A stretch of 64,000 nt of DNA from Spirochaetia bacterium. GTDB taxonomy: Bacteria; Spirochaetota; Spirochaetia; WTKD01; G963693115. The notes below the pieces were generated by a model. That model saw only the letters and a program-made list of their open reading frames with translations, ran no database searches and had not been told where the DNA came from. The position numbers and the translations under genes are program-made. Shown in pieces: positions 33,664 through 48,212 of the stretch; position 1 is the stretch's first letter, and each line of letters starts with the position of its first letter. The stretch lies in contig CBDDCA010000005.1 in the NCBI GenBank assembly GCA_965226055.1, forward strand, positions 576,001-640,000, given 5' to 3'.

Positions 33664-33664
33664 A

Positions 33665-36600
33665 TCAATCTCTATTCCTATATATAAAACATTGTTCTCG
33701 TAAAATTAAAGACACAATAAAATTTTCTACTATACTCTCTTTCTTATTTTTCACATCAGTATCTGTGTCTACAAACAAACGAGAAAAATCCAACTGATAC
33801 ACAGAAGACAAAGCATGCAATAAATTCTCTTCTATAGTAGAAAGAAACATATGTATCTTCTCCGTACGCTTTCGCATAGCTGTTTGTGTACGAGGAGATG
33901 GCATATATTCTGAAACATCTCCTTTTCCAATATCACTATTATATTTTTGTAGCGTTTGCTCTATATAATCAAGCATGTGCAGAGAACTACTTTCATGTAA
34001 TGCTTGAGGCACAGGAAACACTGTATTATACAGAGACATATCTTTGTAGCTATCGGCAATATAATACAATGCTCCTTTTACATATCCCACCATTCCATCA
34101 GCAGTAGAAGTCCCCCCCTCTTTCCCTTGAGCAGTAGCATCATTGTCTTCTTTTATACTTGACATCTGATAAAACAAAAAATGAGTATGCTTACTTACAA
34201 GTACATGATAGGCCCACAGCTGTGTAAAATAACGTTCAAGCATTTGAGCATTGGTACTTTTACGCAGTTTATAATCAAAAAAACTATAGTACTCCTCTCC
34301 TTGATGAGAAAAACATAGATCAGGTTTGCCTTGTAATACAAAAGGAGGAAATTGTATATCATTACACATAATTTCAGAAAGATCAAAATCAATAGACTCT
34401 TCAATGATATGTATTGATGATTTCTGAGTATAGAGAGCATACAACAACACTGACATAAAACGATAGAGTAACACTTCATCAAAGGCATGCTCTATTGACT
34501 GTTGCATAAAGAAATACAATGATTCGTTCACTAAGCGTTGCATAAACAAAGCCTTGCCTTCTGCAACAATATCAGGCACCAACGATAAAAGTACATCAAG
34601 CTGTGACTGAGAATCAATAGCTCCAGAATCTCCCATCGTCTGTATATGCTTTGCTACCATTGATGCCATATGTGCAAATGTCTCATGAATAAGCGAACTA
34701 AAAAGCATTCTCTCAGAATACAAAAAAATATTTTGTGCAAACAACTCTCGTATCTGAAAAACATTGTTCAACATATACACCATTGGATTTTCAAGAACAA
34801 GCGATAAATTGCTAGGATGTATATGTGAATGAAGCATACTTTTTTTATGAACATTCTTATGCGTAAGATTTCTTTGATATTTTTCTCGCACCTTTTTGTC
34901 AACAGCATGGGTAAAGAAAGAAGCATTTTTTGTAGCACTCTGAATATGTTGTTGATACTCCAATCCTTGTTTTTGTACGGACGATATTGTACAAAAAGAT
35001 GTTTCTGTTTCTGCAATAGCTCCCTGTCTCTCCTTATTATTGTGTGTATGTATAGAACTACACAGCTTTTCCCAGTACTGTTGTTCTTTTTGAAAAGTAT
35101 CCACAACAAACGCAGGCTCTATATTGTTCCAAAATGCAGGATCAGGCTGTACTCCGTCTGGACTCTGTGCAGAAAAGCTAAACGCAACAGTATCAGAACA
35201 ATAATCAAGACTAGACTGTATATACTGATTTCGTTTCTCATAGCGCTGTTGTAACGCATCACTCATATAGCGCTTACTTAGCATCTCATGAAAGAATGTA
35301 GGCTTTGAAAGCACTCTAGCAAATGCGTTCTGATTACACCCAATATAGTATTGATACGCATATTCACAATACAGAGAATGAGGAAACACACACAAAGCAA
35401 CAGAAGATTGTGTATGACTATCACTATCATGTCTCCTATACTGAGTAAGGTGGGCACGTAACACATGAAATGGAGATTTTGCAATCTCTTTCTCAAAATT
35501 ATCATATGTTTGTTCCATATGCTTACTGAGAACAACATAATCATCCAGTGTTTCATATAACTGCTTTAGCCACACAATACCCTCTAATGCATCCTGACAC
35601 ATATATGTATCAATGAGAACATGCACACTCTCTCTCAATTCTACAAAACTGCTTGCCTGTACAATAGTACGAAACATATGTTGAATACTAAAAAAATACT
35701 CGTATATAGTAAGGGTATGTACTGCTCTTTGCTCTTTCCTATGTTCCATAGCCTCCAATTCATCTGTATTTTCATCTATATTATTTGTATAGCCATGTGT
35801 ATGCTGTTCATTATCTTCATTCAGATGATCATTTTTCTTAACTTCACGAGCAAGCACTTTTTTCCATAACGATAAATCATTACTATCGTTTGGGATTTTT
35901 TCATATCCAAGTTGAACAATACGAACATGCATAGCTCGTTGTTTCCATGGGATACGTGGATCCATAAACAAATTTTGCAATGTATGTACAGTACATCCTT
36001 TGGAATACAGTTGCCACATATGTTCTAACAAAGGAAAATGTTGCACCATATGTATATCCTGTAAAACGATACCATATTGCTTTGCAGTACTATATATATC
36101 TTCTATTATTGTTGGATTATTATCACACAATGTTATTGCAATAGAATGTGGCTCAACAGAAGTAAGTTTTTCTTGAATACTTTTACAAACATAGTGGAGT
36201 TCCTGTCTTGTATACATAAATTTCTTTATTGTTTTTTGAGAATATGCTGATACACTCATAGTTTGCATGTACTCCATGTAGTCAGAAAAACTACATTGTG
36301 TATAAGGAGCATCATTACTCTTATGTTCTGTATAAGCAGATGCCATAGTATCGTTTTGTTTTCTATTTGATATATCCTGAAAAAAACACATACTATTCAT
36401 CACTTCATTTTGATATAAATACAAAAAACGAGATTGTTGTTCATTGCTCAGCAACTGTGGAAACAAAAACACAAACATATCATCAATACAGATATGTTGT
36501 TTTACGAGCAATGTAGGCAACACTAATGTATCTATACAGTTACTCTTGGTAAGTATCTGTACATACGATGCGTAAAACACCTCTATACAATGCACAAAAA

Positions 36601-37024
36601 AATCATTATCGCTACAAGTGTGTAGTATAAGGTGATATGCTTGTAATAAAGCCTCAAACTTCAACACATAGTTTTGTGAAAATTCCTCTAAAGAAATACT
36701 ATTATTAGCACTATCAATCTGTTCAAGTCTAAAAAGCATATTCTGTACCTCTTTTTGTTGAAGCACCATACTTAAGAGTATATGTCGTTCCTTACGAGAC
36801 AGAGAATACATCAATTCACATTGTTGTATATCAAGAGAAGAAAGATATTTGCGAGACAGAAAATCAAATACCGATGAACTATTCATACAGTATTCTAAAG
36901 ATACAATATCTACATGCTCACTTAACTGACGACACCAAAAATTTCGCAATTCCTCTGTTGGAAAAACAATATATCGCTTATGGTAAATAGAATCAATAAG
37001 ATATTGAAGTATGTTACTATGCAC
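33665..37024 (-). CDS. AddB-like PD-(D/E)XK nuclease subunit (divergent)
   Basis: Adjacent to addA; C-terminal GKPD...FDYK...QLWAY. Confidence 0.7.
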   Translation of the reverse strand: MHSNILQYLIDSIYHKRYIVFPTEELRNFWCRQLSEHVDIVSLEYCMNSSSVFDFLSRKYLSSLDIQQCELMYSLSRKERHILLSMVLQQKEVQNMLFRLEQIDSANNSISLEEFSQNYVLKFEALLQAYHLILHTCSDNDFFVHCIEVFYASYVQILTKSNCIDTLVLPTLLVKQHICIDDMFVFLFPQLLSNEQQSRFLYLYQNEVMNSMCFFQDISNRKQNDTMASAYTEHKSNDAPYTQCSFSDYMEYMQTMSVSAYSQKTIKKFMYTRQELHYVCKSIQEKLTSVEPHSIAITLCDNNPTIIEDIYSTAKQYGIVLQDIHMVQHFPLLEHMWQLYSKGCTVHTLQNLFMDPRIPWKQRAMHVRIVQLGYEKIPNDSNDLSLWKKVLAREVKKNDHLNEDNEQHTHGYTNNIDENTDELEAMEHRKEQRAVHTLTIYEYFFSIQHMFRTIVQASSFVELRESVHVLIDTYMCQDALEGIVWLKQLYETLDDYVVLSKHMEQTYDNFEKEIAKSPFHVLRAHLTQYRRHDSDSHTQSSVALCVFPHSLYCEYAYQYYIGCNQNAFARVLSKPTFFHEMLSKRYMSDALQQRYEKRNQYIQSSLDYCSDTVAFSFSAQSPDGVQPDPAFWNNIEPAFVVDTFQKEQQYWEKLCSSIHTHNNKERQGAIAETETSFCTISSVQKQGLEYQQHIQSATKNASFFTHAVDKKVREKYQRNLTHKNVHKKSMLHSHIHPSNLSLVLENPMVYMLNNVFQIRELFAQNIFLYSERMLFSSLIHETFAHMASMVAKHIQTMGDSGAIDSQSQLDVLLSLVPDIVAEGKALFMQRLVNESLYFFMQQSIEHAFDEVLLYRFMSVLLYALYTQKSSIHIIEESIDFDLSEIMCNDIQFPPFVLQGKPDLCFSHQGEEYYSFFDYKLRKSTNAQMLERYFTQLWAYHVLVSKHTHFLFYQMSSIKEDNDATAQGKEGGTSTADGMVGYVKGALYYIADSYKDMSLYNTVFPVPQALHESSSLHMLDYIEQTLQKYNSDIGKGDVSEYMPSPRTQTAMRKRTEKIHMFLSTIEENLLHALSSVYQLDFSRLFVDTDTDVKNKKESIVENFIVSLILREQCFIYRNRD

Positions 37025-37093: not shown

Positions 37094-40060
37094 TTAATAC
37101 CAACTTGGCAGCGAGGTAACACCAGAACCTTGAAACATATTATCTTTGTTTATATTGTTTCCTACATTCCAATTTTCAAGATTCTTATCAAAGTTTTTTG
37201 CATGCGAAAACATCCAACTCATATTCGTAACATTACTCACATTCCAGCCTGATATATCACTATTAAATACAGAGGCTTTCAAAAACATATTTTTCATATC
37301 CGTAACATTTCCCACACTCCAATTCGATATATCGCCATTAAATACAGAAGCTCTATAAAACATACTACCCATATCTATAACATTTCCCACATTCCATTTT
37401 GATATATCTCCATTAAATACAGAAGCTCCATAAAACATACTACTCATATCGGTAACTTTACTTACATTCCATTTTGATATATCTCCATTAAACGCCTCTG
37501 CAGAGATAAACATATCACTCATATCCCTAACATTACTCACGTCCCACTCTGATATATCGCCATTAAATACAGAAGCTCCATAAAACATACTACTCATATC
37601 TATAACATTACTCACATCCCAGCCTGATATATCGCCATTAAAATTCCTTTTATGTGCAAATAAATCACTCATATCCTTTATAGCACTTGTATCTATTTCG
37701 TTTAGGTTTGCAGTATTTCCTTCTTTCTTTAATACTGTTTCAATAGCTTCCTTTAATGTATCTTTATTATATGGAATGTATCGTATATCATATGCTACTG
37801 ATATTTTAGTAGCCCAACTTGGCAATGAAGTTACCCCAGAATATGAAAACATCTTATATTGATCTACATTTCCTTCTATATTCCATCTTTCAAGTTCTTG
37901 ATTAAACTTTTTTGCTCTATAAAACATCCAACTCATATCCGTAACACTTCCCACATCCCAGCCTGATACATCTCTATTAAACACTTTTACACTCGCAAAC
38001 ATCCAACCCATATCCCTAACATTACTCACATTCCATCCTGATATATCACTATTAAATGCATCTGCATAGTGAAACATACCTCTCATATTCGTAACACTAC
38101 TCACATTCCAATCTGATATATCTCCATTAAACGCCTCTGCAAAACCAAACATTCCACTCATACCCCTAACATTTCCTACATTCCATCCTGATAGATCTTG
38201 ATTAAACTTTTTTGCTTTAAAGAACATACTACCCATACTGGTAACATTTCTCACATCCCAGCCCGATATATCTTGATTAAACCCTATTGCATGTGCAAAC
38301 ATACCATTCATATTTGTAACATTTCTCACATTCCACTTTGATATATCTCCATTAAACTTTGAAGCATAAAACATCTTACTCATATCTTTTACATTGCTTA
38401 CATCCCACTCTGATATATTGCCATTAAAATCACTTATATTTGCAAATAAATCACTCATATCCTTTATAGCACTTGTATCTATATTATTGAGATTTGCTTT
38501 TCTTCCTTGCTTCCGTATTTCTACTGCAATGACTTTATATAACTCAGACTTGTTTTGCGGACTGTGAGCATACGCCCCTGATGTTGTAGTAGCCGTAGTA
38601 GCCCAACTTGGCAGTGAACTTACTCCAGACCCTTGAAACATCTTATATTTGTTTACATTGTCTCCCACATTCCATCTTTCAAGATTCTTATCAAAAACCT
38701 TTGCATTATAAAACATCCTGTTCATATCTTTTACTTTACTTACATTCCAACCCGATATATCACTATTAAACGCATAGGCATACTCAAACATACTCCCCAT
38801 ATTTTCAACATTGCTTACATTCCATTTTGATATGTCTCCATTAAAATCTCCTGCTTGAGCAAACATTTTATCCATATTTGTAACATTGCTTACATCCCAC
38901 TCTGATATATCTCCATTAAAATCATTTATATTTACAAATAAATCACTCATATCCTTTATAGCACTTGTATCTATATTATTAAGATTTGCTTTTCTTCCTT
39001 GCTTCCATATTTCTACTGCAATGACTTTATATAACTCATCTTTGTTTTGCGGACTGTGAGCATACGCCCCTGATGTTGTAGTAGCCGTAGTAGCCCAACT
39101 TGGCAGTGGACTTACTCCAGACCCCTGAAACATCTTATATTTGTTTACATTGTCTCTCAAATTCCATCTTTCAAGATTTTTATCAAAAACCTTTGCATTA
39201 TAAAACATCCTGTTCATATCTTTTACTTTACTTACATCCCAGCCCGATATATCTCCATTAAATGTATCTGAATCATAAAACATACCACTCATATCCCTAA
39301 CATTTCCAACATCCCAGCTTGATATATCACCAGTAAACCCCGATCTATAGTAAGTTTCACTCCCAAACATCCAGCTCATATCTATAACATTACGCACATC
39401 CCACTTTGATATATCACTATTAAATACCGATGCTCCATAAAACATACCGTTCATATAAATGACTTTACTCACATCCCATCCCGATATATCTTGATTAAAT
39501 GCTGCTGAAAACTTAAACATGAAAGATATATTTTTTACATTCCCCACTTTCCATTTCGATATATCTTGGTTAAAACTTATGGCAGAATCAAACATCCTGC
39601 TCATATCCGTTACTTTACTTACATCCCATTTCGATATATCACTATTAAATGCATAGGCATACTCAAACATACGAGACATATTTGTAACCTTGCTTACATT
39701 CCATTTTGATATGTCTCCATTAAAATTTCCCGCTTGAGCAAACATTTTATACATATTTGTAACATTGCTTACATCCCACTCTGATATATCTCCGTTAAAA
39801 CTTCTTTTACTTGCAAATAAACCACTCATATCAGTGATAGCACTTGTATCTATATTATTAAGATTTGCTTTATTTCCTTTTATTCCTATTTCTACATCTA
39901 TAACTTTTTTTAAGTCAATCTTAGTTTTTGGACGATAACTAATATTCTTATTATACAATGACAATAACTCATCACAATTCATGAGAGACAGTAAAACTAC
40001 TATCATACATACAAAAAAGAAGGCTTTCTTTGTATGTTGAAAACTAAAAAATGAACGCAT
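37094..40060 (-). CDS. BspA/DUF285 repeat lipoprotein, 4 modules
   Basis: Lipobox LMN-C and 25-aa repeats W(D/N)VS.V..M..MF..A..FN.DIS. Start at ATG 40060 after SD AAGGAG. Confidence 0.88.
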   Translation of the reverse strand: MRSFFSFQHTKKAFFFVCMIVVLLSLMNCDELLSLYNKNISYRPKTKIDLKKVIDVEIGIKGNKANLNNIDTSAITDMSGLFASKRSFNGDISEWDVSNVTNMYKMFAQAGNFNGDISKWNVSKVTNMSRMFEYAYAFNSDISKWDVSKVTDMSRMFDSAISFNQDISKWKVGNVKNISFMFKFSAAFNQDISGWDVSKVIYMNGMFYGASVFNSDISKWDVRNVIDMSWMFGSETYYRSGFTGDISSWDVGNVRDMSGMFYDSDTFNGDISGWDVSKVKDMNRMFYNAKVFDKNLERWNLRDNVNKYKMFQGSGVSPLPSWATTATTTSGAYAHSPQNKDELYKVIAVEIWKQGRKANLNNIDTSAIKDMSDLFVNINDFNGDISEWDVSNVTNMDKMFAQAGDFNGDISKWNVSNVENMGSMFEYAYAFNSDISGWNVSKVKDMNRMFYNAKVFDKNLERWNVGDNVNKYKMFQGSGVSSLPSWATTATTTSGAYAHSPQNKSELYKVIAVEIRKQGRKANLNNIDTSAIKDMSDLFANISDFNGNISEWDVSNVKDMSKMFYASKFNGDISKWNVRNVTNMNGMFAHAIGFNQDISGWDVRNVTSMGSMFFKAKKFNQDLSGWNVGNVRGMSGMFGFAEAFNGDISDWNVSSVTNMRGMFHYADAFNSDISGWNVSNVRDMGWMFASVKVFNRDVSGWDVGSVTDMSWMFYRAKKFNQELERWNIEGNVDQYKMFSYSGVTSLPSWATKISVAYDIRYIPYNKDTLKEAIETVLKKEGNTANLNEIDTSAIKDMSDLFAHKRNFNGDISGWDVSNVIDMSSMFYGASVFNGDISEWDVSNVRDMSDMFISAEAFNGDISKWNVSKVTDMSSMFYGASVFNGDISKWNVGNVIDMGSMFYRASVFNGDISNWSVGNVTDMKNMFLKASVFNSDISGWNVSNVTNMSWMFSHAKNFDKNLENWNVGNNINKDNMFQGSGVTSLPSWY

Positions 40061-40131
40061 AGTATTCTCCTTTATTTTCATATGAAAATATTCAATTACA
40101 TTATATCATAAAACATATATAACAACAATAC

Positions 40132-43100
40132 CTAATTTGCCCAACTTGGTGGTGATGTTACCCCAGATTTTGTAAATATACCCGATTTCTCTACACTCGA
40201 TCCGACATTCCAACGTGATAAATCTCTATTAAATGCAGATGCTAAATAAAACATAGCACTCATATCCGTAACATTGCTCACATCCCATCCCGATATATCT
40301 TGATTAAACGCAGAAGTAGTAAAAAACATCCCTGAAGTATCTGTAACTGCAGTTACTGTCCATGATCTTATATTGCCATTAAATGCTGTGTGGGCAAACA
40401 TATAGGACATATTCTTAACCTTACTCACATCCCAATCAGGTAAGTTTTGATTAAAAACACTCGCGTTATTAAACATACTACTCATAATAGTAACCTTCCC
40501 TACTTTCCATTTGGATATATTTTGATTAAACACCGATGCTTCATTAAACATTTGTTCCATATTTTCAACATTACTCACATTCCATCCCGATATATCTTGA
40601 TTAAACTTTGCTGCAGCATTAAACATTGCTTTCATATTTGTAACTTTGCTTACATCCCATTTCGATATATCTCCATTAAATGCACTAGCATTATTAAACA
40701 TATAAGACATATTAGTAACATTACGTACATTCCATTTTGATATATCCCCGTTAAAAGTTGTTTTTCCTGCAAACACAACATGCATATTAGTTATGGCACT
40801 TGTATCTATATTATTGAGATTTGCAGCATTCCCTTGCTTCTTTATTTCTACTGCAATAGCATTCTGTAACTCATTTTTTGTTGTTGGACTGTGAACATAT
40901 GTTACTGATGATGCAGTAGCCCAACTTGGTGGTGAACTTACTCCAGAATCTTGAAACATCTTCCCTCTGTCTACACTCTGGTGTACATTCCAGCTTGATA
41001 AATCTTGATTAAATTTTGATGCAGAATAAAACATTTTATTCATATCTGTCACTTTGCTTATGTCCCATCCCGATATATCTTGATTAAATTTTGATGCTGC
41101 ATTAAACATACTTCTCATAATAGTAACCTTCCCTACTTTCCATTTCGATATATCACTATTAAACACCGATGCATTATAAAACATCATGTTCATACTCGTA
41201 ACATTACTCACATCCCACTCCGATAGATCTTGATTAAACACTGTCGCATACTTAAACATAAAGGACATATTTTTTACTTTTCCTACTTTCCATTCGGATA
41301 TATCTTGGTTAAAGCTCGTGGCAGCATCAAACATAACACTCATATCTGTTACTTTACTCACATCCCAGTCCGATATGTCACTATTAAATGCCCATGCTTG
41401 CTCAAACATTCTTTCCATAGTCGTAACTTTGCTTACATCCCACTTTGATATATTCCCATTAAAAGTCTTGTTCCTTGCAAATAAATTACTCATATCGGTG
41501 ATAGCACTTGTATCTATATTATTTAAGTTTGCTTTATTCCCTTGCTTCTTTATTTCTGCTGCTATAGCTTTCTCTAACTCAGCTTTTGTTTTTGGACTGT
41601 GGTCGTATGATACTGATGATGCAGTAGCCCAACTTGGCGGTGAAGCCACTCCAGAGTCCTTAAACATATCTTCTCTATCCACACTCGGATGTACATTCCA
41701 GCTTGATAGATCTTGATTAAATTTTGCTGCAGAATCAAACATACTTCTCATAATAGTAACCTTCCCTACTTTCCATTTCGATATATCACTATTAAACACC
41801 CGTGCATTATAAAACATCATGTTCATATTGGTAACATTACTCACATCCCAGTCTGATAGATCTTGATTAAACACTGTCGCATACTTAAACATAAAGGACA
41901 TATTTTTTACTTTTCCTACTTTCCATTCGGATATATCTTGGTTAAAGCTCGTGGCAGCATCAAACATAACACTCATATCTGTTACTTTACTTACATCCCA
42001 CTCCGATATATCACTATTAAATGCATGTGCTTGCTCAAACATGCTCCCCATATTTTCAACATTGCTTACTTTCCACTTCGATACATCCCCACTAAATGCG
42101 TTTGCATGAGCAAATATACCAGACATATTTGTAACCCTGCCTACATTCCATTTAGATACATCCCCATTAAAAGTCTTGTTCCCTGCAAATAAACGACTCA
42201 TATCGGTAATAGCACTTGTATCTATATTATTTAAGTTTGCTTTATTCCCTTGCTTCTTTATTTCTGCTGCTATAGCTTTCTCTAACTCAGCTTTTGTTTT
42301 TGGACTGTGGTCGTATGATACTGATGATGCAGTAGCCCAACTTGGCGGTGAAGCCACTCCAGAGTCCTTAAACATATCTTCTCTTTTCACACTCGGATGT
42401 ACATTCCAGCTTGATAGATCTTGATTAAATTTTGCTGCAGAATCAAATATATTGTCCATATCTGTTACTTTATCAATTTTCCAATTAGATATATCCCTAT
42501 TAAACACAGATGCATGATAAAACATCATTTTCATATTTGTAACACTACTCACATCCCAGCCCGATATATCTCCATTAAATACAGTTGCATACTTAAACAT
42601 AAAGGACATATTTTTTACTTTTCCTACTTTCCATTTTGATATATCTTGGTTAAAGCTCGTGGCAGCATCAAACATAACACTCATATTTGTTACTTTACTC
42701 ACATCCCAATCCGATATATCACTATTAAATGCATGTGCTTGCTCAAACATACTCTCCATATTTTCAACATTGCTTACTTTCCACTTCGATAGATCCCCAC
42801 TAAATGCGTTTGCATGAGCAAATATACCAGACATATTTGTAACCTTGCTTACATCCCACTTAGATACATCCCCATTAAAAGTCTTGTTCCCTGCAAATAA
42901 ACGACTCATATCGGTAATAGCACTTGTATCTATATTATTTAAGTTTGCTTTATTTCCTTGCTTTTTTATTTCTGATTCTATAGTTTTTAACAAATCAGCT
43001 TTTGTTTTTGGACTATAGCTAATACCTTTACTTATTAATGACAATGCCTCATCACAATTTACGAGAGACAATATCATTATCATCACACTAATAAAAAAGA

Positions 43101-43140
43101 AAGCCTTTTTTATACCTTGAACATTAAAAAAAGAATACAT
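40132..43140 (-). CDS. BspA/DUF285 repeat lipoprotein, 4 modules
   Basis: Lipobox LVN-C; modules joined by SGV.SPPSWATASSV.Y.HSP linkers. Confidence 0.88.
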   Translation of the reverse strand: MYSFFNVQGIKKAFFFISVMIMILSLVNCDEALSLISKGISYSPKTKADLLKTIESEIKKQGNKANLNNIDTSAITDMSRLFAGNKTFNGDVSKWDVSKVTNMSGIFAHANAFSGDLSKWKVSNVENMESMFEQAHAFNSDISDWDVSKVTNMSVMFDAATSFNQDISKWKVGKVKNMSFMFKYATVFNGDISGWDVSSVTNMKMMFYHASVFNRDISNWKIDKVTDMDNIFDSAAKFNQDLSSWNVHPSVKREDMFKDSGVASPPSWATASSVSYDHSPKTKAELEKAIAAEIKKQGNKANLNNIDTSAITDMSRLFAGNKTFNGDVSKWNVGRVTNMSGIFAHANAFSGDVSKWKVSNVENMGSMFEQAHAFNSDISEWDVSKVTDMSVMFDAATSFNQDISEWKVGKVKNMSFMFKYATVFNQDLSDWDVSNVTNMNMMFYNARVFNSDISKWKVGKVTIMRSMFDSAAKFNQDLSSWNVHPSVDREDMFKDSGVASPPSWATASSVSYDHSPKTKAELEKAIAAEIKKQGNKANLNNIDTSAITDMSNLFARNKTFNGNISKWDVSKVTTMERMFEQAWAFNSDISDWDVSKVTDMSVMFDAATSFNQDISEWKVGKVKNMSFMFKYATVFNQDLSEWDVSNVTSMNMMFYNASVFNSDISKWKVGKVTIMRSMFNAASKFNQDISGWDISKVTDMNKMFYSASKFNQDLSSWNVHQSVDRGKMFQDSGVSSPPSWATASSVTYVHSPTTKNELQNAIAVEIKKQGNAANLNNIDTSAITNMHVVFAGKTTFNGDISKWNVRNVTNMSYMFNNASAFNGDISKWDVSKVTNMKAMFNAAAKFNQDISGWNVSNVENMEQMFNEASVFNQNISKWKVGKVTIMSSMFNNASVFNQNLPDWDVSKVKNMSYMFAHTAFNGNIRSWTVTAVTDTSGMFFTTSAFNQDISGWDVSNVTDMSAMFYLASAFNRDLSRWNVGSSVEKSGIFTKSGVTSPPSWAN

Positions 43141-43319
43141 AGCATACCCCTTATAATTATATTTATTGTTACTATAATAAATAATAGTACTACACCAATA
43201 TCAGATTATACATAAAAATAAAAAAAATGCAAGTATATTTCTCAAATTTAAGCATTAAATACAATAAAGAAGCAAAAAGGAACAAGAACACATAAACGTA
43301 TTACTTCTTGAATACATAC
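43141..43319. repeat. Conserved intergenic repeat, copy 1 (promoter TTGCAT-16-TATAAT at 43205-43232, minus strand)
   Basis: Shares ctcaaatttaagcattaaatacaataaagaagc and flanks with 45093-45285 and 46276-46466. Confidence 0.8.
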
Positions 43320-45092
43320 CTAATTTGCCCAGCTTGGCGGTGATGTTACTCCAGAGCCTTTAAACATATTACGTTTGTTTACACTGCTCCCAACATTCCA
43401 GCGTGATAAATCTTGAGTAAACTTTGTTGCCAACGAAAACATTGCTCTCATATTTGTTACTTTGCCAATGTTCCACCTTGATATATTTTGATTAAATACA
43501 GCTGCTTCAGCAAACATAGCTTCCATATTGGTCACTTTGCTTACATCCCAGCCTGATATATCTTGATTAAACGCAGAAGTGGTAAAAAACATCCCTGACA
43601 TATCAGTAACTGCACTTACTTTCCATGTCGATATATTGCCATTAAACGCTGTATGGGCAAACATATAGGACATACTCGTTACTTTACTCACATCCCACGC
43701 AGATAAATTTTGATTAAAAACACTTGCATTATTAAACATACTTCTCATATTTTTAACCTTCCTTACTTTCCACTTTGATATATTTTGATTAAACACAGAT
43801 GCTTCATTAAACATTTGTTCCATATTCTCAACATTACTCACATTCCATCCCGATATATCTTGATTAAACTTTGATGTACCATTAAACATCCTTTCCATAT
43901 TCGTAACTTTGCTTACATCCCAGCCCGATATATCTCCATTAAATGCATTCGCATAATTAAACATATAAGACATATCGGTAACATTACTCACATTCCATTT
44001 TGATATATCTCCATTAAAAGTCCTTTTAACTGCAAATAAAGTACTCATATTAGTGATAGCACTTGTATTTATATTATTTAAGTTTGCCTCATTTCCTTGC
44101 TTCTTTATTTCTGCTGCTACTGCTTTCTCTAACTCAGCTTTTGTTGTTGGACTGTGGTCGTATGATACTGATGATGCAGTAGCCCAACTTGGCGGTGAAG
44201 TCACTCCAGAATCTCTAAACATATTTTTTCTGTCTACACTCGAATGTACATTCCAGCTTGATAGATCTTGATTAAATTTTGCTGCAGAATCAAACATACT
44301 ACTCATATTTATTACTTTGCTAATTTTCCAACCAGATATATCTTTATTAAACACAGATGCCTTATAAAACATATTATACATTTTGGTAACATTATCCACC
44401 TTCCACCGTGATATATCACTATTAAATTTAGCGGCTGCATAAAACATACCTGCCATATTTGTTACTTTACTCACATCCCAGTCCGATAGATCTTGGTTAA
44501 ACACTATCGCATACTTAAACATAAAGGACATATTTTTTACTTTTCCTACTTTCCATTTCGATATATCTTGGTTAAAACTCCTTGCCACATCAAACATAAT
44601 ACTCATATTTGTCACTTTACTCACATCCCATTCCGATATATCACTATTAAATGCATGTGCTTGCTCAAACATACTCCCCATATTTTCAACATTGCTTACA
44701 TCCCACTTTGATAGATCCCCCTTAAATGCGTTCGCATTATAAAACATACGCTCCATATTTGTAACCTTGCCTACATTCCACTTTGATACATCCCCATTAA
44801 AAGTCTTTTTATTTGCAAACAAACTACTCATATCAGTGACAGCACTTGTATTTATATTATTGAGATTTGCTGTGTCTCCTTGCTTCTTTATTTCTGCTTC
44901 TACAGCTTTCTCTAACTCAGCTTTTGTTGTTGGACTGTAATCTATTTGTGGGTTATTATCAGGATTTGTTGGTAAGGACTCATCATTTGTTGACAATGCC
45001 TCACCACAATTTACGAAAGACAATATTATTATCATCACACTAATAAAAAAGAAAGCCTTTTTTATACCTTGAACATTAAAAAAAGAATACAT
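43320..45092 (-). CDS. BspA/DUF285 repeat lipoprotein, 2 modules
   Basis: Lipobox FVN-C; same repeat consensus. Confidence 0.88.
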   Translation of the reverse strand: MYSFFNVQGIKKAFFFISVMIIILSFVNCGEALSTNDESLPTNPDNNPQIDYSPTTKAELEKAVEAEIKKQGDTANLNNINTSAVTDMSSLFANKKTFNGDVSKWNVGKVTNMERMFYNANAFKGDLSKWDVSNVENMGSMFEQAHAFNSDISEWDVSKVTNMSIMFDVARSFNQDISKWKVGKVKNMSFMFKYAIVFNQDLSDWDVSKVTNMAGMFYAAAKFNSDISRWKVDNVTKMYNMFYKASVFNKDISGWKISKVINMSSMFDSAAKFNQDLSSWNVHSSVDRKNMFRDSGVTSPPSWATASSVSYDHSPTTKAELEKAVAAEIKKQGNEANLNNINTSAITNMSTLFAVKRTFNGDISKWNVSNVTDMSYMFNYANAFNGDISGWDVSKVTNMERMFNGTSKFNQDISGWNVSNVENMEQMFNEASVFNQNISKWKVRKVKNMRSMFNNASVFNQNLSAWDVSKVTSMSYMFAHTAFNGNISTWKVSAVTDMSGMFFTTSAFNQDISGWDVSKVTNMEAMFAEAAVFNQNISRWNIGKVTNMRAMFSLATKFTQDLSRWNVGSSVNKRNMFKGSGVTSPPSWAN

Positions 45093-45156
45093 AGCATACT
45101 CCTTATAGTTATATTTATTATTACTATATAAACATATAGTACTATACCAATATCAG

Positions 45157-45187
45157 ATTATACCAAAAAAAAAAAAAAAAAAAGCAA
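45157..45187 (-). promoter_or_regulatory. Sigma70 promoter TTGCTT-19-TATAAT with a T19 tract (intergenic repeat copy 2)
   Basis: Minus strand reads TTGC-T19-GG-TATAAT; A19 at 45165-45183 on the plus strand. Confidence 0.75.
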
Positions 45188-45285
45188 GTGTATTTACGAA
45201 TTCAAGCTCAAATTTAAGCATTAAATACAATAAAGAAGCAAAAAGGAGCAAGAACACATAAACGCATTGATTCTTGAATATATAC

Positions 45286-46275
45286 CTAATTTGCCCAACT
45301 TGGCGGTGATGTTACTCCCGATTTTTCGAACATCCTTCCTTTTTCTACCCCTGATTTAACATTCCAACGTGTTAAATCTTGAGTAAATTTTGTTGCCGAC
45401 AAAAACATTGCTCTCATATTTGTTACTTTGCCAATGTTCCACCTTGATATATTTTGATTAAATACAGCTGCTTCAGCAAACATAGCTTCCATATTGGTCA
45501 CTTTGCTTACATCCCAGCCTGATATATCTTGATTAAACGCAGAAGTAGTAAAAAACATCCCTGACATATCAGTAACTGCACTTACTTTCCATGTCGATAT
45601 ATTGCCATTAAACGCTGTATGGGCAAACATATAGGACATACCCGTTACTTTACTCACATCCCACGCAGATAAATTTTGATTAAAAACACTTGCATTATTA
45701 AACATACTCTTCATATTTTTAACCTTCCCTACTTTCCACTTTGATATATTTTGATTAAACACAGATGCTTCATTAAACATTTGTTGCATATTCTCAACAT
45801 TACTCACATTCCATCCCGATATATCTTGATTAAACTTTGATGTACCATTAAACATTCTTTCCATATTCGTAACTTTGCTTACATCCCAGCCCGATATATC
45901 TCCATTAAATGCATTCGCATAATTAAACATATAAGACATATCGGTAACATTACTCACATTCCATTTTGATATATCTCCATTAAAAGTCCTTTTAACTGCA
46001 AATAAAGTACTCATATTAGTGATAGCACTTGTATCTATATTATTTAAGTTTGCCTCATTTCCTTGCTTCTTTATTTCTGCTTCTACTGCTTTCTCTAAAT
46101 CAGCTTTTGTTTTTGGATTGTAATCTATTTGTGTATTGTTATCAGGATTTTTTGGCGAGGACTCATCATTTGTTGACAACGACTCATCACAATTTACGAA
46201 AGACAATATTATTATCATCACACTAATAAAAAAGAAAGCCTTTTTTATACCTTGAATATTAAAAAAAGAATACAT
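45286..46275 (-). CDS. BspA/DUF285 repeat lipoprotein, 1 module
   Basis: Lipobox FVN-C; the module is nearly identical to the second module of 43320..45092. Confidence 0.88.
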   Translation of the reverse strand: MYSFFNIQGIKKAFFFISVMIIILSFVNCDESLSTNDESSPKNPDNNTQIDYNPKTKADLEKAVEAEIKKQGNEANLNNIDTSAITNMSTLFAVKRTFNGDISKWNVSNVTDMSYMFNYANAFNGDISGWDVSKVTNMERMFNGTSKFNQDISGWNVSNVENMQQMFNEASVFNQNISKWKVGKVKNMKSMFNNASVFNQNLSAWDVSKVTGMSYMFAHTAFNGNISTWKVSAVTDMSGMFFTTSAFNQDISGWDVSKVTNMEAMFAEAAVFNQNISRWNIGKVTNMRAMFLSATKFTQDLTRWNVKSGVEKGRMFEKSGVTSPPSWAN

Positions 46276-46340
46276 AGTATACTCCTTATAGTTATATTTA
46301 TAAGTACTATATAAACATATAGTACTTATACCAATATCAA

Positions 46341-46369
46341 ATTGTACATAGAAATAAAAAAAAATGCAA
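46341..46369 (-). promoter_or_regulatory. Sigma70 promoter TTGCAT-17-TACAAT (intergenic repeat copy 3)
   Basis: Paralogous to the promoters at 43205 and 45157; contains a T9 run. Confidence 0.7.
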
Positions 46370-46466
46370 GTATATTCACGAGTTTAAGCTCAAATTTAAG
46401 CATTAAATACAATAAAGAAGCGAAAAGAAACAAGAATACATAAAAGAATGATTCTTGAATACATAC

Positions 46467-47336
46467 CTAATTTGCCCAACTTGGCGGTGAAGTCACTCCA
46501 GAATTCTTAAATATATTTGCTTTCTTTACACTGCTTCCAACATTCCATGCTGCAAGATTTTGATTAAATTTTGTCGCAGCATTAAACATGCTACTCATAT
46601 CTGTTACTTTGCTCACGTTCCATCCCGATATATTGCTATTAAATACAGATGCTGTATCAAACATACTTATCATAATAGTCACCTTATCCACCTTCCATTT
46701 CGATATATCACTATTAAATACATGTGCATTATAAAACATCATATTCATATTGGTAACATTACTCACATCCCACTTTGATAGATCTTGATTAAACATTGTC
46801 GTATACTTAAACATAAAGGACATATCTTGTACATTTCCTACTTTCCATTTGGATATATCTTGGTTAAAACTTGTAGCAGCATCAAACATAACACCCATAT
46901 CTGTTACTTTACTTACATCCCAGTCCGATATATCACTATTAAATGCCCATGCTTGCTCAAACATTCTTTCCATAGTCGTAACTTTGCTTACATCCCACTT
47001 TGATAGATCTCCATTAAATTTTTCCGCCCGCATAAACATGCTTGACATATTTGTAACATTACTCACATTCCACAATGATACATCTCCATTAAAATCTTTT
47101 TTATTTGCAAACAGATCACTCATATCGGTGATGCCACTCGTATCTATACTATTTAGGTTTGCTGTGTTCCCTTGCTTCGTTATTTCTTCTTCTATAGCTT
47201 TCACTAGATCGGCTTTTGTTTGTGGGCTATGCCCCTCCAGTACTTCATTACAATTTACAAGAGACAATACAATGACTATCACACTAATAAAAAAGAAAGC
47301 CTTTTTTATACCTTGAACATTAAAAAAATGGTGCAT
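46467..47336 (-). CDS. BspA/DUF285 repeat lipoprotein, 1 module
   Basis: Lipobox LVN-C; repeats shared with 40132..43140. Confidence 0.88.
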   Translation of the reverse strand: MHHFFNVQGIKKAFFFISVIVIVLSLVNCNEVLEGHSPQTKADLVKAIEEEITKQGNTANLNSIDTSGITDMSDLFANKKDFNGDVSLWNVSNVTNMSSMFMRAEKFNGDLSKWDVSKVTTMERMFEQAWAFNSDISDWDVSKVTDMGVMFDAATSFNQDISKWKVGNVQDMSFMFKYTTMFNQDLSKWDVSNVTNMNMMFYNAHVFNSDISKWKVDKVTIMISMFDTASVFNSNISGWNVSKVTDMSSMFNAATKFNQNLAAWNVGSSVKKANIFKNSGVTSPPSWAN

Positions 47337-47408
47337 AATATACTCCTTTATTTTTTTATAAAATACCGTTTCTATTATACTACAAAAGACAATAATAGCA
47401 GTACCCCA

Positions 47409-48212
47409 TTAACCCCAACTTGGCGGTGATATTACTCCAGACTCTTGAAACATATCCTTTTTATATACACTTACTCCTATATTCCATTTTTCGAGGTTTT
47501 GATTAAATGCTCCTGCAGACTCAAACATATATCCCATATTTATCACTTTACTCACATCCCAACCCGATATATCTTGATTAAACACAACAGCAGACTCAAA
47601 CATACCATTCATCTCAGTAACATTACTTACATCCCAGCCTGATATATCTTGATTAAACTTCATAGCAGTGCTAAACATACCATTCATCTTAGTAACATTA
47701 CTCACATCCCAGCCCGATATGTCACTATTAAAGGCTACTGCTAAAAAAAACATTCCTGTCATATCTGTTACTTTGCTCACGTCCCAGCCCGATATATCAC
47801 TATTAAATACAGATGCTTCAGCAAACATATTTCTCATATTCGTAACATTACTCACATCCCAGCCTGATACATCTCCATTAAACACAGATGCTCCAGTAAA
47901 CATACTACTCATATCTGTTACATTACTCACATCCCAACCCGATATATCTCCATTAAAATCCCCCTTCTCTGCAAACAAATTACTCATATCGGTGATAGCA
48001 CTCGTATTTATGCTATTTAAGTTTGCTTCATTCCCTTGCTTCTTTATTTCTGCTTCAATAACCTTTACTAACTCAGCTTTCGTCTGTGGACTAAAATCAG
48101 TATGTTTTGACACTGCCTCATTGGACACACAATTTATAAAAAGTAATGAAATCATTATCATACAAATAAAAAAGAAAGCTCTTTGCTTCCCTTGAATAAA
48201 AAAATAATACAT
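47409..48212 (-). CDS. BspA/DUF285 repeat lipoprotein, 1 module
   Basis: Start at ATG 48212 (MYYFF) after SD AAGGAG; lipobox FIN-C. Confidence 0.85.
   Translation of the reverse strand: MYYFFIQGKQRAFFFICMIMISLLFINCVSNEAVSKHTDFSPQTKAELVKVIEAEIKKQGNEANLNSINTSAITDMSNLFAEKGDFNGDISGWDVSNVTDMSSMFTGASVFNGDVSGWDVSNVTNMRNMFAEASVFNSDISGWDVSKVTDMTGMFFLAVAFNSDISGWDVSNVTKMNGMFSTAMKFNQDISGWDVSNVTEMNGMFESAVVFNQDISGWDVSKVINMGYMFESAGAFNQNLEKWNIGVSVYKKDMFQESGVISPPSWG

What the first reader, a model, noticed from the sequence alone, without database searches (positions are those of the whole stretch)
37094..48212. Six-gene BspA/DUF285 lipoprotein array built from shuffled, capped repeat modules: candidate combinatorial surface-binder or antigenic-variation system
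Seen: six tandem, co-oriented genes with related signal peptides encode 13 modules (4+4+2+1+1+1). Each module is an N-cap (P.TK..L...I..EI.KQG..ANLN.IDTS), several 25-aa repeats, and a C-cap (WNV...V.K..MF..SGV...PSW). The framework is fixed and variation concentrates in the x positions of M-x-x-M-F-x-x-A-x-x-F-N. An ordered block (E(Q/Y)A(H/W/Y)A, D(A/S/V)A.S, K(Y/F)..., Y..ASV) recurs in four genes. A second block (NEASV, NNASV, AHTA, FTTSA) recurs in three. Gene 43320 is A+B, 45286 is B only, 46467 is A only, and 40132 is A+A+A+B. Inference: a recombining library of solenoid binders, loosely analogous to VLR/LRR repertoires. DUF285 expansions are known; this organisation may not be described.
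Basis: partly seen in the sequence, partly recalled or inferred. Interest (0 to 1): 0.8.

Follow-up and report, generated by a model that had tools for sequence, protein, structure and literature searches.

The report
Tandem PARCEL (DUF285) surface lipoprotein genes
Six neighbouring genes of a spirochaete encode surface lipoproteins built from capped blocks of a known 25-residue repeat (PARCEL/DUF285), and they evolve by ordinary unequal recombination between copies rather than by a special shuffling system.

Summary
Six co-oriented minus-strand genes (37094-48212) encode 13 capped modules (4+4+2+1+1+1) of 25-residue repeats, with variation concentrated at the x positions of M-x-x-M-F-x-x-A-x-x-F.

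The family is already known: DUF285 (PF03382), the PARCEL repeat (TIGR02167), described in Mycoplasma lipoproteins in 2010. One module folds confidently as an LRR-like solenoid (pLDDT 96.6).

"Shuffled" is not supported. Repeat order is strictly collinear (0 inversions in 517 ordered comparisons). Modules differ only by whole-repeat gains and losses.

Recombination is real. A syntenic relative (about 95% identical flanks) lacks one gene and one module and differs in repeat number in 3 of 10 module pairs. Paralogous modules within a genome are more alike than positional orthologues. Mosaic tracts and permutation tests agree.

This looks like ordinary unequal crossover and gene conversion. All six genes are complete expression units, with no silent cassettes. 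The variable positions are not under clear positive selection (omega 0.64 overall, 0.12 in two of four comparisons).

New here: a T19 homopolymer lies just upstream of the -10-like box of gene 43320. The tract length differs among paralogues and the relative, so it is a candidate phase-variation switch.

Verdict: a new member of a known kind, of modest interest.

The parts
47409..48212 (-). g6: single-module PARCEL/DUF285 lipoprotein (267 aa from ATG 48212; 6 repeats)
   Evidence: ORF and translation. Start set by alignment of the ribosome-binding site and ATG. DUF285 E 8e-71. Orthologue of 267 aa in L001.
46467..47336 (-). g5: single A-type module (289 aa; 7 repeats)
   Evidence: TIGR02167 PARCEL repeat E 1.6e-34. 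AlphaFold2 model of the mature protein has pLDDT 96.6. Orthologue in L001 is 93% identical over the tblastn match (94% in the protein alignment).
45286..46275 (-). g4: single B-type module (329 aa; 8 repeats) with a long Asn/Asp/Pro-rich leader
   Evidence: About 700 bp (46100-45401) differ at only 11 positions from the second module of g3.
43320..45092 (-). g3: two-module A+B gene (590 aa). It is mosaic and absent from the relative L001
   Evidence: Best-hit painting shows a g4-like leader, a first part most like L001's four-module gene, a g2-like middle, two unique repeats, and a B module 97-100% identical to g4. There is no counterpart in L001.
40132..43140 (-). g2: four-module gene A-A-A-B (1002 aa)
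   Evidence: The L001 orthologue has the same length and architecture. Its dS of 0.288 compares with 0.10-0.125 in flanking genes. Paralogous modules are homogenised within each genome.
37094..40060 (-). g1: four-module gene (988 aa from ATG 40060). Its second module is a chimera that is absent from L001
   Evidence: A 492-bp period x2.2 lies at 38253-39337. The N-cap of module 2 groups with module 3 and its C part with module 1. The L001 orthologue has 650 aa and 3 modules.
45093..45285 (-). Intergenic region upstream of g3, with a -10-like TATAAT preceded by TGG and a T19 homopolymer (45165-45183)
   Evidence: Sequence and homopolymer scan. In 200 shuffles the longest A/T run averaged 10.1 and never exceeded 14. 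Alignment with the paralogous intergenic regions shows the tract as the main length-variable site.
46276..46466 (-). Intergenic region upstream of g4: TTGCAT-17-TACAAT, T9 tract
43141..43319 (-). Intergenic region upstream of g2: TTGCAT-16-TATAAT, interrupted T tract (T8-A-T5). The orthologous site in L001 has an uninterrupted T15
43039..46121 (-). Direct duplication offset by about 1.97 kb: 46121-44991 matches 44155-43039 (93.9% over 1133 bp). Each copy holds a B module, an intergenic region and the next gene's signal peptide
   Evidence: Self-blastn and detailed alignment.

Best explanation
This is a chromosomal tandem family of six PARCEL-repeat (DUF285) surface lipoproteins in an uncultured member of the class Spirochaetia.

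Structure and likely function:
- Each module is a self-contained LRR-like solenoid: an N-terminal capping helix, 3-8 turns of 25 residues and a C-cap.
- In three genes, two to four modules are joined by 11-14-residue Ala/Thr/Ser linkers.
- The most likely role is ligand binding or adhesion at the cell surface (inferred, not shown).
- The hypervariable arc (repeat positions 10-18) would stack from turn to turn into one stripe along the solenoid. Repeated A modules would add valency rather than new specificity.

Evolution:
- The family changes by homologous recombination between its own 75-bp repeats, modules and 180-190-bp intergenic regions.
- In-register unequal crossover adds or removes whole repeats, modules and genes.
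- Gene conversion both makes mosaics and homogenises neighbouring modules.
- This recombination is shown on an evolutionary time scale only.

Expression:
- Three promoter-like intergenic regions carry a poly-T tract just upstream of the -10 box. Its length differs among copies (9, 19, 8+5; 15 in the relative).
- Expression of some units may therefore switch by slipped-strand mispairing (inferred).
For: Family:
- Pfam DUF285 E-values run from 8e-71 to 0.
- NCBIfam TIGR02167 'PARCEL repeat-containing surface protein' scores 1.6e-34 to 8.2e-124 for the 3 of 6 array genes scanned.

Lipoprotein:
- All six have a K/R n-region, a hydrophobic core and [LFI]-[VMI]-N-C. This was read by eye.

Fold:
- pLDDT 96.6 and pTM 0.91, with a cap helix and a strict 25-residue period.
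- Against the PDB the matches listed are LRR proteins.
- Predicted DUF285 proteins of giant viruses and jumbo phages match at TM up to 0.83.

Binding-head use:
- The 1708-aa lipoprotein at 5157-10283 carries one capped module at the end of a fibronectin-III stalk.

Collinearity:
- 0 inversions in 517 ordered comparisons.

Recombination:
- A 1.97-kb offset duplication.
- g4 and the second module of g3 differ at 11 sites in 700 columns, then at 22 in about 100. The longest identical run is 178 nt, reached in 0 of 10000 permutations.
- The g3 mosaic.
- Modules 1 and 2 of the four-module gene are 91.7% (window) and 93.0% (L001) identical within a genome, against 85.5% and 88.3% for positional orthologues. 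Flanks are about 95% identical.
- In the four-gamete permutation tests, 0 of 2000 permutations reached the observed value for 4 of 5 sets; p = 0.015 for the fifth.
- AU tests give p 0.0009-0.04, for groups named after seeing the trees.

Differences from the relative:
- One gene and one module are present only in the window.
- Repeat number differs in 3 of 10 positional module pairs.

Poly-T tracts:
-.
- The only two homopolymers of 15 or more in the 64 kb both lie 5' of PARCEL genes.
Against: - No binding, surface exposure or expression was tested.
- The lipobox has Asn at -1, which is not canonical. That spirochaetes tolerate this is recalled, not tested, and no signal-peptide predictor was run.
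That the variable residues share one face is deduced from the solenoid's periodicity, not measured.
- The -35-like hexamer TTGCAT matches TTGACA at only 3 of 6 positions, and the promoter scan did not list these sites.
- g3 has a TGG-TATAAT extended -10-like box, which could make tract length irrelevant.
- Only one relative was available, so rates and within-population variation are unknown.
- The permutation test is a simplified PHI, and repeat alignments can be ambiguous.
- PARCEL's name-giving dyad symmetry was not evident: self-blastn gave 1 weak inverted hit.
Confidence: 0.65

Rival explanations
1. One reading: a dedicated combinatorial or antigenic-variation system. The six genes would serve as a recombining library, and frequent exchange of modules would produce new binders or new antigens within a population, in the manner of VLR assembly or vls/tprK cassette systems.
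For: - Mosaic gene g3.
- Chimeric second module of g1.
- Significant recombination signal.
- The array differs from a relative whose flanks are about 95% identical.
- Omega at the variable positions is three times that of the framework (0.64 against 0.21).
- Variable poly-T tracts lie before three genes.
Against: - All six genes are complete, each with its own ribosome-binding site, ATG and signal peptide. There is no expression site with silent donors.
- No reverse transcriptase or deaminase was found in the window. The only recombinase-type gene is an IS30-like transposase 12 kb away.
- Repeat order is never permuted.
- 7 of 10 positional module pairs keep their repeat number, and most modules pair as orthologues across the two genomes.
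- Omega at variable positions is 0.12 for g5 and for g1 module 1. It is below 1 in all 15 A-type paralogue pairs (range 0.07-0.97).
- The single omega above 1 among the four orthologue comparisons (g6, 2.2) traces to an intra-module conversion in L001.
- Conversion mostly homogenises.
Confidence: 0.12
2. Simple whole-gene or whole-module duplication followed by point divergence, with no exchange between copies.
For: - Repeat order is collinear.
- Many modules pair as orthologues between the two genomes.
Against: - Paralogues within a genome are closer than positional orthologues. AU tests reject positional orthology of the C parts (p 0.0009 and 0.0019).
- A 700-column tract with 11 differences is flanked by a burst of differences.
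- dS of g2 against its orthologue is 0.288, compared with 0.10-0.125 in flanks.
- The permutation tests are significant.
Confidence: 0.03
3. The mosaics and the extra gene or module are assembly artefacts of a repetitive region.
For: - Near-identical 700-bp tracts and 75-bp periodicity are the kind of sequence that short-read assemblers collapse or chimerise.
- The sequencing method of the window is unknown.
Against: - All six ORFs are intact and in register.
- g3 contains two repeats that match nothing else better than 76-80%.
- An independent assembly (L001, a complete 2.36-Mb chromosome record) has the same architecture for four genes, including the 1002-aa four-module gene.
- Indels relative to L001 are whole repeats or modules.
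Confidence: 0.05
4. The proteins are surface or periplasmic structural or coat components, or decoys, and not specific binders. The variable positions would then be merely unconstrained solvent-exposed sites.
For: - Omega at variable positions is below 1 overall.
- In Mycoplasma LppQ and LppC the dominant B-cell epitopes lie outside the repeat tracts (PMC2996958, section 7).
- No ligand is known for any member in the texts read.
Against: - The variable residues of homologous repeats are conserved between genomes (omega 0.12 in two comparisons) and among A modules. That argues for constraint, not neutrality.
- A capped module sits at the tip of a fibronectin-III stalk.
- The same fold occurs in phage proteins of 900-1300 aa. 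Both of these suit a binding head.
Confidence: 0.15

Closest known systems
PARCEL-repeat lipoproteins of the Mycoplasma mycoides cluster (LppQ, LppC, MCAP_0720/0721), Roske et al. 2010, PMC2996958
   Same: - The same 25-residue repeat, recognised by DUF285 and TIGR02167.
- Conserved hydrophobic positions with variable hydrophilic ones.
- Lipoprotein targeting and variable repeat number.
- Adjacent in-paralogues.
- Homopolymer or dinucleotide contingency tracts 5' of some genes (sections 6 and 7 read).
   Different: - The host here is a spirochaete. The paper's main text has 0 mentions of 'spirochet' or 'Treponema'; its supplements were not examined.
- The genes here are built from several capped modules in one polypeptide.
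- The DNA dyad symmetry stressed in the paper was not evident by blastn.
- No mobile element adjoins the array.
drp (DUF285-related protein) loci of Mycoplasma agalactiae, Nouvel et al. 2010, PMC2824730
   Same: - DUF285 lipoprotein genes lie in the regions that vary most between two strains.
[quoted passage not shown]
- Poly-A length changes inactivate some copies (passages read).
   Different: - The drp genes are scattered, include pseudogenes and are often next to IS elements.
- Here there is one compact array of six intact genes.
- The homopolymer lies in the promoter-like region, not in the coding sequence.
Lamprey and hagfish variable lymphocyte receptors (VLR)
   Same: Capped LRR-type solenoids with variable residues. 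A hagfish VLR (2o6q) is among the weak fold matches (E 7.4e-3, TM 0.35).
   Different: - From memory: VLRs are assembled somatically from silent cassettes into one incomplete germline gene with the help of cytidine deaminases, and their variable residues lie on the concave beta-sheet.
- Here every gene is complete and no such enzyme is nearby.
- The variable arc follows the conserved W-x-V-x-x-V segment instead of lying within it.
BspA / TpLRR (Pfam LRR_5) surface proteins such as Tannerella BspA and Treponema LrrA; Listeria internalins (names recalled)
   Same: - Bacterial surface solenoid proteins in multigene families, used for adhesion.
- NCBI names DUF285 proteins 'BspA family leucine-rich repeat surface protein'.
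- LRR_5 structures 4gt6 and 4fs7 and internalin A appear among the weak fold hits.
   Different: - A different repeat family. The six array proteins scored no LRR_5 hit at E <= 0.01.
- Fold matches are weak (TM 0.38 or less).
- The repeat consensus is not LxxLxLxxN.

Membership tests
PARCEL repeat / DUF285 (PF03382, TIGR02167) | Match to the family HMMs above the curated cut-offs | tested here: met
   PF03382 scores 235.8-1045.1 bits against a cut-off of 25 for all six genes. TIGR02167 scores 117-402 bits against a cut-off of 30 for the 3 array genes scanned.
PARCEL repeat / DUF285 (PF03382, TIGR02167) | Tandem 25-residue units with periodic conserved hydrophobic residues and variable hydrophilic positions | tested here: met
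   80 of 85 units are 25 aa long. Entropy is 0-0.7 bits at the hydrophobic positions and 2.2-3.7 bits at positions 10, 11, 14, 15, 17 and 18.
PARCEL repeat / DUF285 (PF03382, TIGR02167) | Dyad symmetry (palindromy) of the coding DNA | tested here: inconclusive
   Self-blastn on the opposite strand gave 1 weak hit of 39 nt. The original paper used MEME palindrome motifs, which were not run here.
PARCEL repeat / DUF285 (PF03382, TIGR02167) | Membrane targeting as a lipoprotein (true of many members, not all) | tested here: inconclusive
   All six have a signal-peptide-like N-terminus ending in [LFI]-[VMI]-N-C. This was read by eye, no predictor was available, and Asn at -1 is non-canonical.
Mbov_0838 family PARCEL lipoprotein (NF045896) | Score above the curated cut-off of 500 bits over the full 433-position model | tested here: not met
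   g5 scores 204 bits and g4 221 bits, both below 500. g1 reaches 594.8 bits only by summing 9 partial stretches that fall within about model positions 240-380. Only the repeat part is shared.
Canonical leucine-rich repeat proteins | LxxLxLxxN-type repeat and close fold match to solved LRR structures | tested here: inconclusive
   The matches listed are LRR proteins, but none has E <= 0.001 (best 1.2e-3) and TM is 0.38 or less. There is no PDB sequence match at E <= 0.01. The consensus W-x-V-x-x-V-x-x-M-x-x-M-F differs from LxxLxLxxN.
Cassette-based antigenic variation (VLR, vls, tprK, pilE/pilS type) | One expression site plus silent, promoterless, start-less donor cassettes | tested here: not met
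   All six genes have AAGGAG, an ATG, a signal peptide and an intact frame.
Diversity-generating retroelement target | A nearby reverse transcriptase and a template repeat paired with a variable repeat | tested here: not met
   No reverse transcriptase domain was found in the 37 window ORFs scanned. Differences between copies were not examined for restriction to adenine-templated sites.
Simple-sequence contingency locus (phase variation by slipped-strand mispairing) | A long homopolymer in the promoter or 5' coding region of a surface-protein gene | tested here: met
   A T19 tract lies at 45165-45183, directly upstream of TGG-TATAAT and 72 nt before the g3 ATG. It exceeds the longest A/T run in all 200 shuffles (maximum 14).
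Simple-sequence contingency locus (phase variation by slipped-strand mispairing) | Tract length varies between related sequences | tested here: met
   Homologous tracts are T9 (g4), T19 (g3), T8-A-T5 (g2) and T15 (L001 orthologue of g2).
Simple-sequence contingency locus (phase variation by slipped-strand mispairing) | Tract length varies within a population and switches expression | not testable with these tools
   No reads and no expression data were available.

The most novel reading that the evidence does not exclude
The array would be a spirochaetal contingency system with two layers.

- Poly-T tracts in three homologous promoter regions would switch separate transcription units (g4; g3; g2 with g1) on and off.
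- Ongoing in-register conversion and unequal crossover among collinear modules would re-assort variable stripes and valency.

A population would then carry many surface-binder states. This would be the first such PARCEL system shown outside the Mollicutes, and the first with concatenated capped solenoid modules as the unit of exchange.
Probability: 0.2. Interest if true: 0.55.

Novelty: new member of a known kind. Interest (0 to 1): 0.3.

Why it matters
- PARCEL/DUF285 proteins are very numerous. Two searches here each found about 7000-8000 relatives. They are annotated only as 'BspA family surface protein', and no solved structure matched by sequence or closely by fold.
- This locus offers a clean natural experiment. 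Two genomes with about 95% identical flanks show which units change: whole repeats, whole capped modules, and a 1.97-kb gene unit. They also show that the 'variable' residues of a given repeat are conserved.
- That points to fixed specificities with adjustable valency, not to an arms-race library.
- It also extends the link between PARCEL lipoprotein genes and homopolymer tracts from mycoplasmas to a spirochaete.
- None of this changes the current understanding of the family, so the importance is modest.

Tried and rejected
1. Two-module structure of g3, to see whether modules stack or hang as beads. This stays open.
2. Mapping variable residues on coordinates. The model's coordinates are not exposed to scripts, so the 'one face' statement is a deduction.
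3. Close relatives in the protein collection. A search with the signal peptide and N-cap region of g5 gave no hit at E <= 1e-5, with 14 candidates scored. The whole-protein searches list no hit above 58% identity among the 240 shown, ranked by score. There are therefore no strain-level data.
4. The single genome-contig scan gave one syntenic relative (L001). The other four loci are not arrays of this type.
5. An Rfam scan of the array at E <= 1 gave 0 hits. tRNA scan of the window: 0 genes.
6. Recent horizontal transfer rejected on composition. GC3 is 0.27-0.30 in the array and 0.22-0.30 in flanking genes.
7. Positive selection. Omega is not above 1 overall. In the paralogue script the A-type pairs gave omega 0.07-0.97 at variable positions in 15 of 15 pairs. 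One of the two B pairs printed gave 1.33 on 10 non-synonymous and 2 synonymous changes. The script then stopped on a division by zero, so the third B pair and the within-module comparison were not obtained.
8. My strict cap patterns found few caps in other proteins (2 N-cap-like and 7 C-cap-like of 120). They also missed some of the window's own caps. The claim that caps are widespread therefore rests on reading 8 printed proteins and 3 multi-module ones.
9. Wise et al. 2006 on M. capricolum contingency genes is not held. It is cited only through PMC2996958.
10. Literature on DUF285 in spirochaetes. Searches for 'DUF285' with 'spirochaet' and with 'spirochet' each gave one paper, and by title neither is about this.

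Full report
WHAT IS THERE

The window carries six co-oriented minus-strand ORFs between 37094 and 48332. I call them g1 to g6, from low to high coordinates.

Aligning their 5' regions shows the same AAGGAG ribosome-binding site 7 nt before a homologous ATG in all six.

Each product begins with a lysine- or arginine-containing stretch, a hydrophobic core and [LFI]-[VMI]-N-C. That reads as a lipoprotein signal peptide. No predictor was available, and that spirochaetes tolerate Asn before the Cys is recalled, not tested.

Splitting the proteins at the conserved Trp gives 13 modules, 4+4+2+1+1+1. Each module consists of:
- a 51-residue N-cap (P.TK..L... to DTS, plus a partial repeat);
- 3 to 8 full repeats;
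- a 24-residue C-cap ending in PSW.

80 of the 85 full repeats are exactly 25 residues long.

Modules within one protein are joined by 11-14-residue Ala/Thr/Ser-rich linkers. ATASSVSYDHS occurs three times and ATTATTTSGAYAHS twice.

Entropy per repeat position is near zero at W1, V3, V6, M9, M12, F13, A16 and F19. It is 2.2-3.7 bits at positions 10, 11, 14, 15, 17 and 18.

WHAT FAMILY

All six genes match Pfam DUF285 (PF03382) with E-values from 8e-71 to 0. The three I scanned against NCBIfam match TIGR02167, 'PARCEL repeat-containing surface protein'.

PARCEL was defined by Roske et al. 2010 (PMC2996958; I read sections 6, 7 and part 1 of 8, plus term searches). That paper already describes:
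- a 25-residue tandem repeat with conserved hydrophobic and highly variable hydrophilic positions;
- variable repeat number;
- expressed surface lipoproteins in the Mycoplasma mycoides cluster (LppQ, LppC, and MCAP_0720/0721 as adjacent in-paralogues);
- homopolymeric or dinucleotide contingency tracts 5' of some of these genes;
- the proposal of 'intra-genomic shuffling' and 'reservoirs of sequence variants'.

Nouvel et al. [quoted passage not shown] A 2023 preprint on M. feriruminatoris (passages) notes a conserved 16-residue motif upstream of the first repeat, which amounts to an N-cap.

The family is very large. Two searches returned 6804 and 7835 relatives, most of them unnamed or called 'BspA family leucine-rich repeat surface protein'.

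STRUCTURE

AlphaFold2 was run on the mature single-module protein g5 with a 43-row alignment. It gave pLDDT 96.6 and pTM 0.91, one cap helix (model residues 13-27), and then a regular structure with one backbone bridge every 25 residues.

- No PDB chain matches by sequence at E <= 0.01.
- By fold, the PDB matches listed are LRR proteins: designed LRRs, LINGO-1, Nogo receptor, a hagfish VLR, Leptospira LIC10831, internalin A and the LRR_5 proteins 4gt6 and 4fs7. None has E <= 0.001 (best 1.2e-3), and TM is 0.38 or less.
- Predicted structures of DUF285 proteins from giant viruses and jumbo phages match well: 62 hits at E <= 0.001, TM up to 0.83, rmsd 0.6-2.1 A.

The module is therefore an LRR-like solenoid whose close relatives have no solved structure.

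That the six hypervariable positions form one stripe is a deduction: they occupy a contiguous 9-residue arc of each 25-residue turn and must stack from turn to turn. This arc follows the conserved W-x-V-x-x-V segment rather than lying within it. From memory, that differs from VLRs, where the variable residues sit on the beta-sheet face.

ARE THE MODULES SHUFFLED?

No. I clustered all 144 repeat units of the window and of the relative L001 at 80% nucleotide identity and wrote each module as a string of cluster labels:
- A-type modules read (P/a/d)-B-C-Q-R-(S/T...);
- B-type modules read U-V-W-X-Y-Z-(...).

Over 69 module pairs that share at least two single-copy labels, 517 ordered label pairs showed 0 inversions. 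Modules differ by whole-repeat gains and losses and by which repeat sits at the two ends. For example, the second module of g1 is A-B-H against A-B-C-D-E-F-G-H in the first.

DOES THE ARRAY RECOMBINE?

Yes, on an evolutionary scale.

(a) Offset duplication. Self-blastn finds 46121-44991 matching 44155-43039 at 93.9% over 1133 bp. Each copy comprises a B module, the intergenic region and the next gene's signal peptide, so the duplication unit of about 1.97 kb is offset from gene borders.

(b) A sharp tract boundary. Within that alignment, g4 and the second module of g3 differ at 11 sites in 700 columns (46100-45401), then at 22 sites in the next 100 or so, over the C-cap. The longest identical run is 178 nt, which was reached in 0 of 10000 permutations of the differences.

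(c) g3 is a mosaic:
- its leader is g4-like (0.90-0.98 in 90-nt windows);
- its first N-cap and repeats are closest to L001's four-module gene (0.91-0.93);
- the middle is closest to g2 (0.91-0.96);
- two repeats are unique (0.76-0.80 to anything else);
- the B module is 97-100% g4-like.

(d) The second module of g1 is a chimera. Its N-cap groups with module 3 (support 93/94) and its C part with module 1 (96/96). AU tests give p 0.04 and 0.017, but the groups were named after seeing the trees. Tandem Repeats Finder sees the matching 492-bp period at 38253-39337.

(e) Concerted evolution.
- Modules 1 and 2 of the four-module gene are 91.7% identical in the window and 93.0% in L001.
- Positional orthologues are only 85.5% and 88.3% identical, while flanking genes are about 95%.
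- In L001 the two modules are 98.7-100% identical over nt 301-600.
- AU tests reject positional orthology of the C parts (p 0.0009 and 0.0019).
- dS between g2 and its orthologue is 0.288, against 0.10-0.125 for six flanking genes.

(f) Permutation test. I used a simplified PHI test: four-gamete incompatibility of binary informative sites within 100 nt, against permuted site order. For four of five alignments (A-type window, A-type both genomes, B-type, all window modules) 0 of 2000 permutations reached the observed value. The g1 set gave p = 0.015. Repeat alignments can be ambiguous, so I treat this as supporting evidence only.

THE RELATIVE

It lies in OZ244590.1, a 2.36-Mb chromosome record titled 'MAG: Spirochaetia bacterium'.

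Nucleotide identity to the window:
- 95.4% over 8908 bp on the sugar-transporter/GH3 side, including g6 and g5;
- 94.4% over 3873 bp on the AddB-like side;
- only about 89% across the middle of the array.

L001 has five genes of 267, 288, 304, 1002 and 650 aa. Compared with it:
- g3 has no counterpart;
- the second module of g1 has no counterpart;
- 3 of 10 positional module pairs differ in repeat number (8/7, 7/5, 6/1), while 7 are equal.

Most modules still pair as orthologues in trees of the N-cap and of the C part. The architecture is therefore inherited and then edited.

In L001, repeats 4 and 5 of the g6 orthologue are 72/75 nt identical, against 63/75 in the window. That is an intra-module conversion.

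SELECTION

Nei-Gojobori counts between window and L001 orthologues give omega 0.64 at the six hypervariable positions (264 codons), 0.21 at framework positions and 0.21 in caps and linkers.

By gene, omega at the hypervariable positions is:
- 2.2 for g6 (11.3 non-synonymous against 1.7 synonymous changes), largely explained by the conversion just described;
- 0.79 for g2, which is affected by conversions;
- 0.12 for g5;
- 0.12 for g1 module 1.

Among homologous repeats of A-type paralogues, omega at these positions was below 1 in all 15 pairs (range 0.07-0.97). One of the two B pairs printed gave 1.33 on small counts. The script then failed, so the rest is missing.

The 'variable' residues are thus variable between repeats, but largely conserved for a given repeat. 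That fits fixed specificities better than an arms race.

EXPRESSION SIGNALS

Intergenic distances are 145 nt (before g6), 72, 191, 193, 179 and 71 nt (to the corrected g1 start). The three long intergenic regions are homologous to each other and to the one before L001's four-module gene, with 89% mean column identity.

The four regions read as follows:
- g4: TTGCAT-17-TACAAT;
- g3: TTGC, then T19, then GG-TATAAT;
- g2: TTGCAT-16-TATAAT;
- L001: TTGCAT-17-TATAAT, with an uninterrupted T15.

The T tract is the main length-variable site in this alignment.

In the 64-kb window only two homopolymers reach 15 nt: the T19 before g3, and a T17 (10389-10405) about 105 nt upstream of another PARCEL lipoprotein gene (5157-10283). 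In 200 shuffles the longest A/T run averaged 10.1 and never exceeded 14.

This is the classic layout of a slipped-strand contingency locus, and the same association was reported for mycoplasmal PARCEL genes (PMC2996958, section 7). There are caveats:
- the -35-like hexamer matches the consensus at only 3 of 6 positions;
- the consensus scan did not list these sites;
- g3 has an extended -10-like TGG-TATAAT, which could lessen any dependence on spacing;
- nothing was measured.

No Rfam family matches in the array at E <= 1.

CONTEXT

The surrounding genes are housekeeping:
- an AddA-like helicase-nuclease and a 1119-aa partner downstream;
- a GH3 glycosidase and a sugar ABC transporter upstream;
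- a lone 23S rRNA gene.

No reverse transcriptase was found. The only recombinase-type gene is an IS30-like transposase at 60522-61487, about 12 kb from the array.

GC3 of the array genes (0.27-0.30) lies within the range of flanking genes (0.22-0.30). There is no compositional sign of recent transfer.

IS THE ARCHITECTURE UNUSUAL?

Caps are not special to this locus. Of 8 unrelated family members whose ends I printed, at least two show the same N-cap (for example ...P-E-T-K-x-E-L... followed by D-T-S-K-I-T-D-M-S) and at least two a C-cap ending P-S-W.

Three database proteins that I inspected concatenate capped modules just as g1-g3 do. I had picked them by a crude pattern from 120. P0227 has three modules. 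P0183 has many. P0200, from a Campylobacter, has at least five behind an N-terminal region that its source names as a DarT-family protein.

In the window itself, the 1708-aa lipoprotein carries one capped module at the far end of a fibronectin-III-rich stalk. That is how adhesin heads are usually mounted.

I found no paper linking DUF285 with spirochaetes. Two searches gave one paper each, and by title neither is about this. In the parts of the PARCEL paper that I read there was no description of concatenated capped modules or of concerted evolution within an array. Its supplements were not examined.

VERDICT

The finding is real and well observed, but it belongs to a known family with known behaviour.

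The best explanation is a tandem family of PARCEL surface lipoproteins. The capped solenoid modules are probable binding units. The family is edited by ordinary in-register unequal crossover and gene conversion, and possibly switched by poly-T tracts.

A programmed combinatorial library is not supported: the genes are complete, the repeat order is collinear, conversion homogenises, and there is no clear positive selection.

What remains open:
- whether the proteins are surface exposed and what they bind;
- whether tract length or array structure varies within a population;
- how adjacent modules sit relative to one another (the two-module fold could not be obtained).

Noticed in passing
window 5157-10283 (-), with 10389-10405: A 1708-aa predicted lipoprotein (lipobox LVGC) has a Thr/Ala/Ser-rich fibronectin-III stalk (GC 44%) and a single capped PARCEL module (N-cap, 4 repeats, C-cap) at its C-terminal end. 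A T17 homopolymer lies about 105 nt upstream of its start. This is the only other homopolymer of 15 nt or more in the window.
   Followed up: partly
window 55467-58423 (-); L001 1-1977: A 23S rRNA gene stands alone: no 16S, 5S or tRNA gene is found in the window. Synteny with L001 ends at window 55345, just before it. At that position L001 instead has an IS1595-family transposase (L001 1150-1809).
   Followed up: partly
window 60522-61487 (+): An IS30-like transposase (HTH_38 plus an rve integrase core) lies about 2 kb from the 23S rRNA gene and 12 kb from the array.
   Followed up: no
window 46849-47316, 47668-48195, 41318-41716 (+): Long antisense ORFs run through the PARCEL genes. They translate to a periodic VTLLTSQPD(I/M)S(L/P)L... 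pattern. They are probably a by-product of the repeat's codon make-up. The DNA dyad symmetry described for PARCELs was not evident by blastn (1 weak inverted hit).
   Followed up: partly
window 29956-37024 (-): An AddA-like helicase-nuclease (UvrD and PD-(D/E)XK domains) and a 1119-aa partner with no Pfam or NCBIfam match lie directly downstream of the array. The partner may be a divergent AddB. They are conserved in L001 at 94% nucleotide identity.
   Followed up: no
protein P0200 (Campylobacter sp.): A 1200-aa partial database protein joins an N-terminal region, which its source names as a DarT ADP-ribosyltransferase family protein, to at least five concatenated capped PARCEL modules. This is an unexpected pairing of a toxin-like domain with this repeat.
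   Followed up: no
L001 9127-9930: In the relative's g6 orthologue, repeats 4 and 5 encode identical peptides and are 72/75 nt identical, against 63/75 in the window. This recent intra-module conversion inflates the apparent dN/dS at variable positions.
   Followed up: yes
window 62169-63920 (-): A 583-aa Kelch-repeat protein lies at the edge of the window. Kelch beta-propellers are uncommon in bacteria.
   Followed up: no
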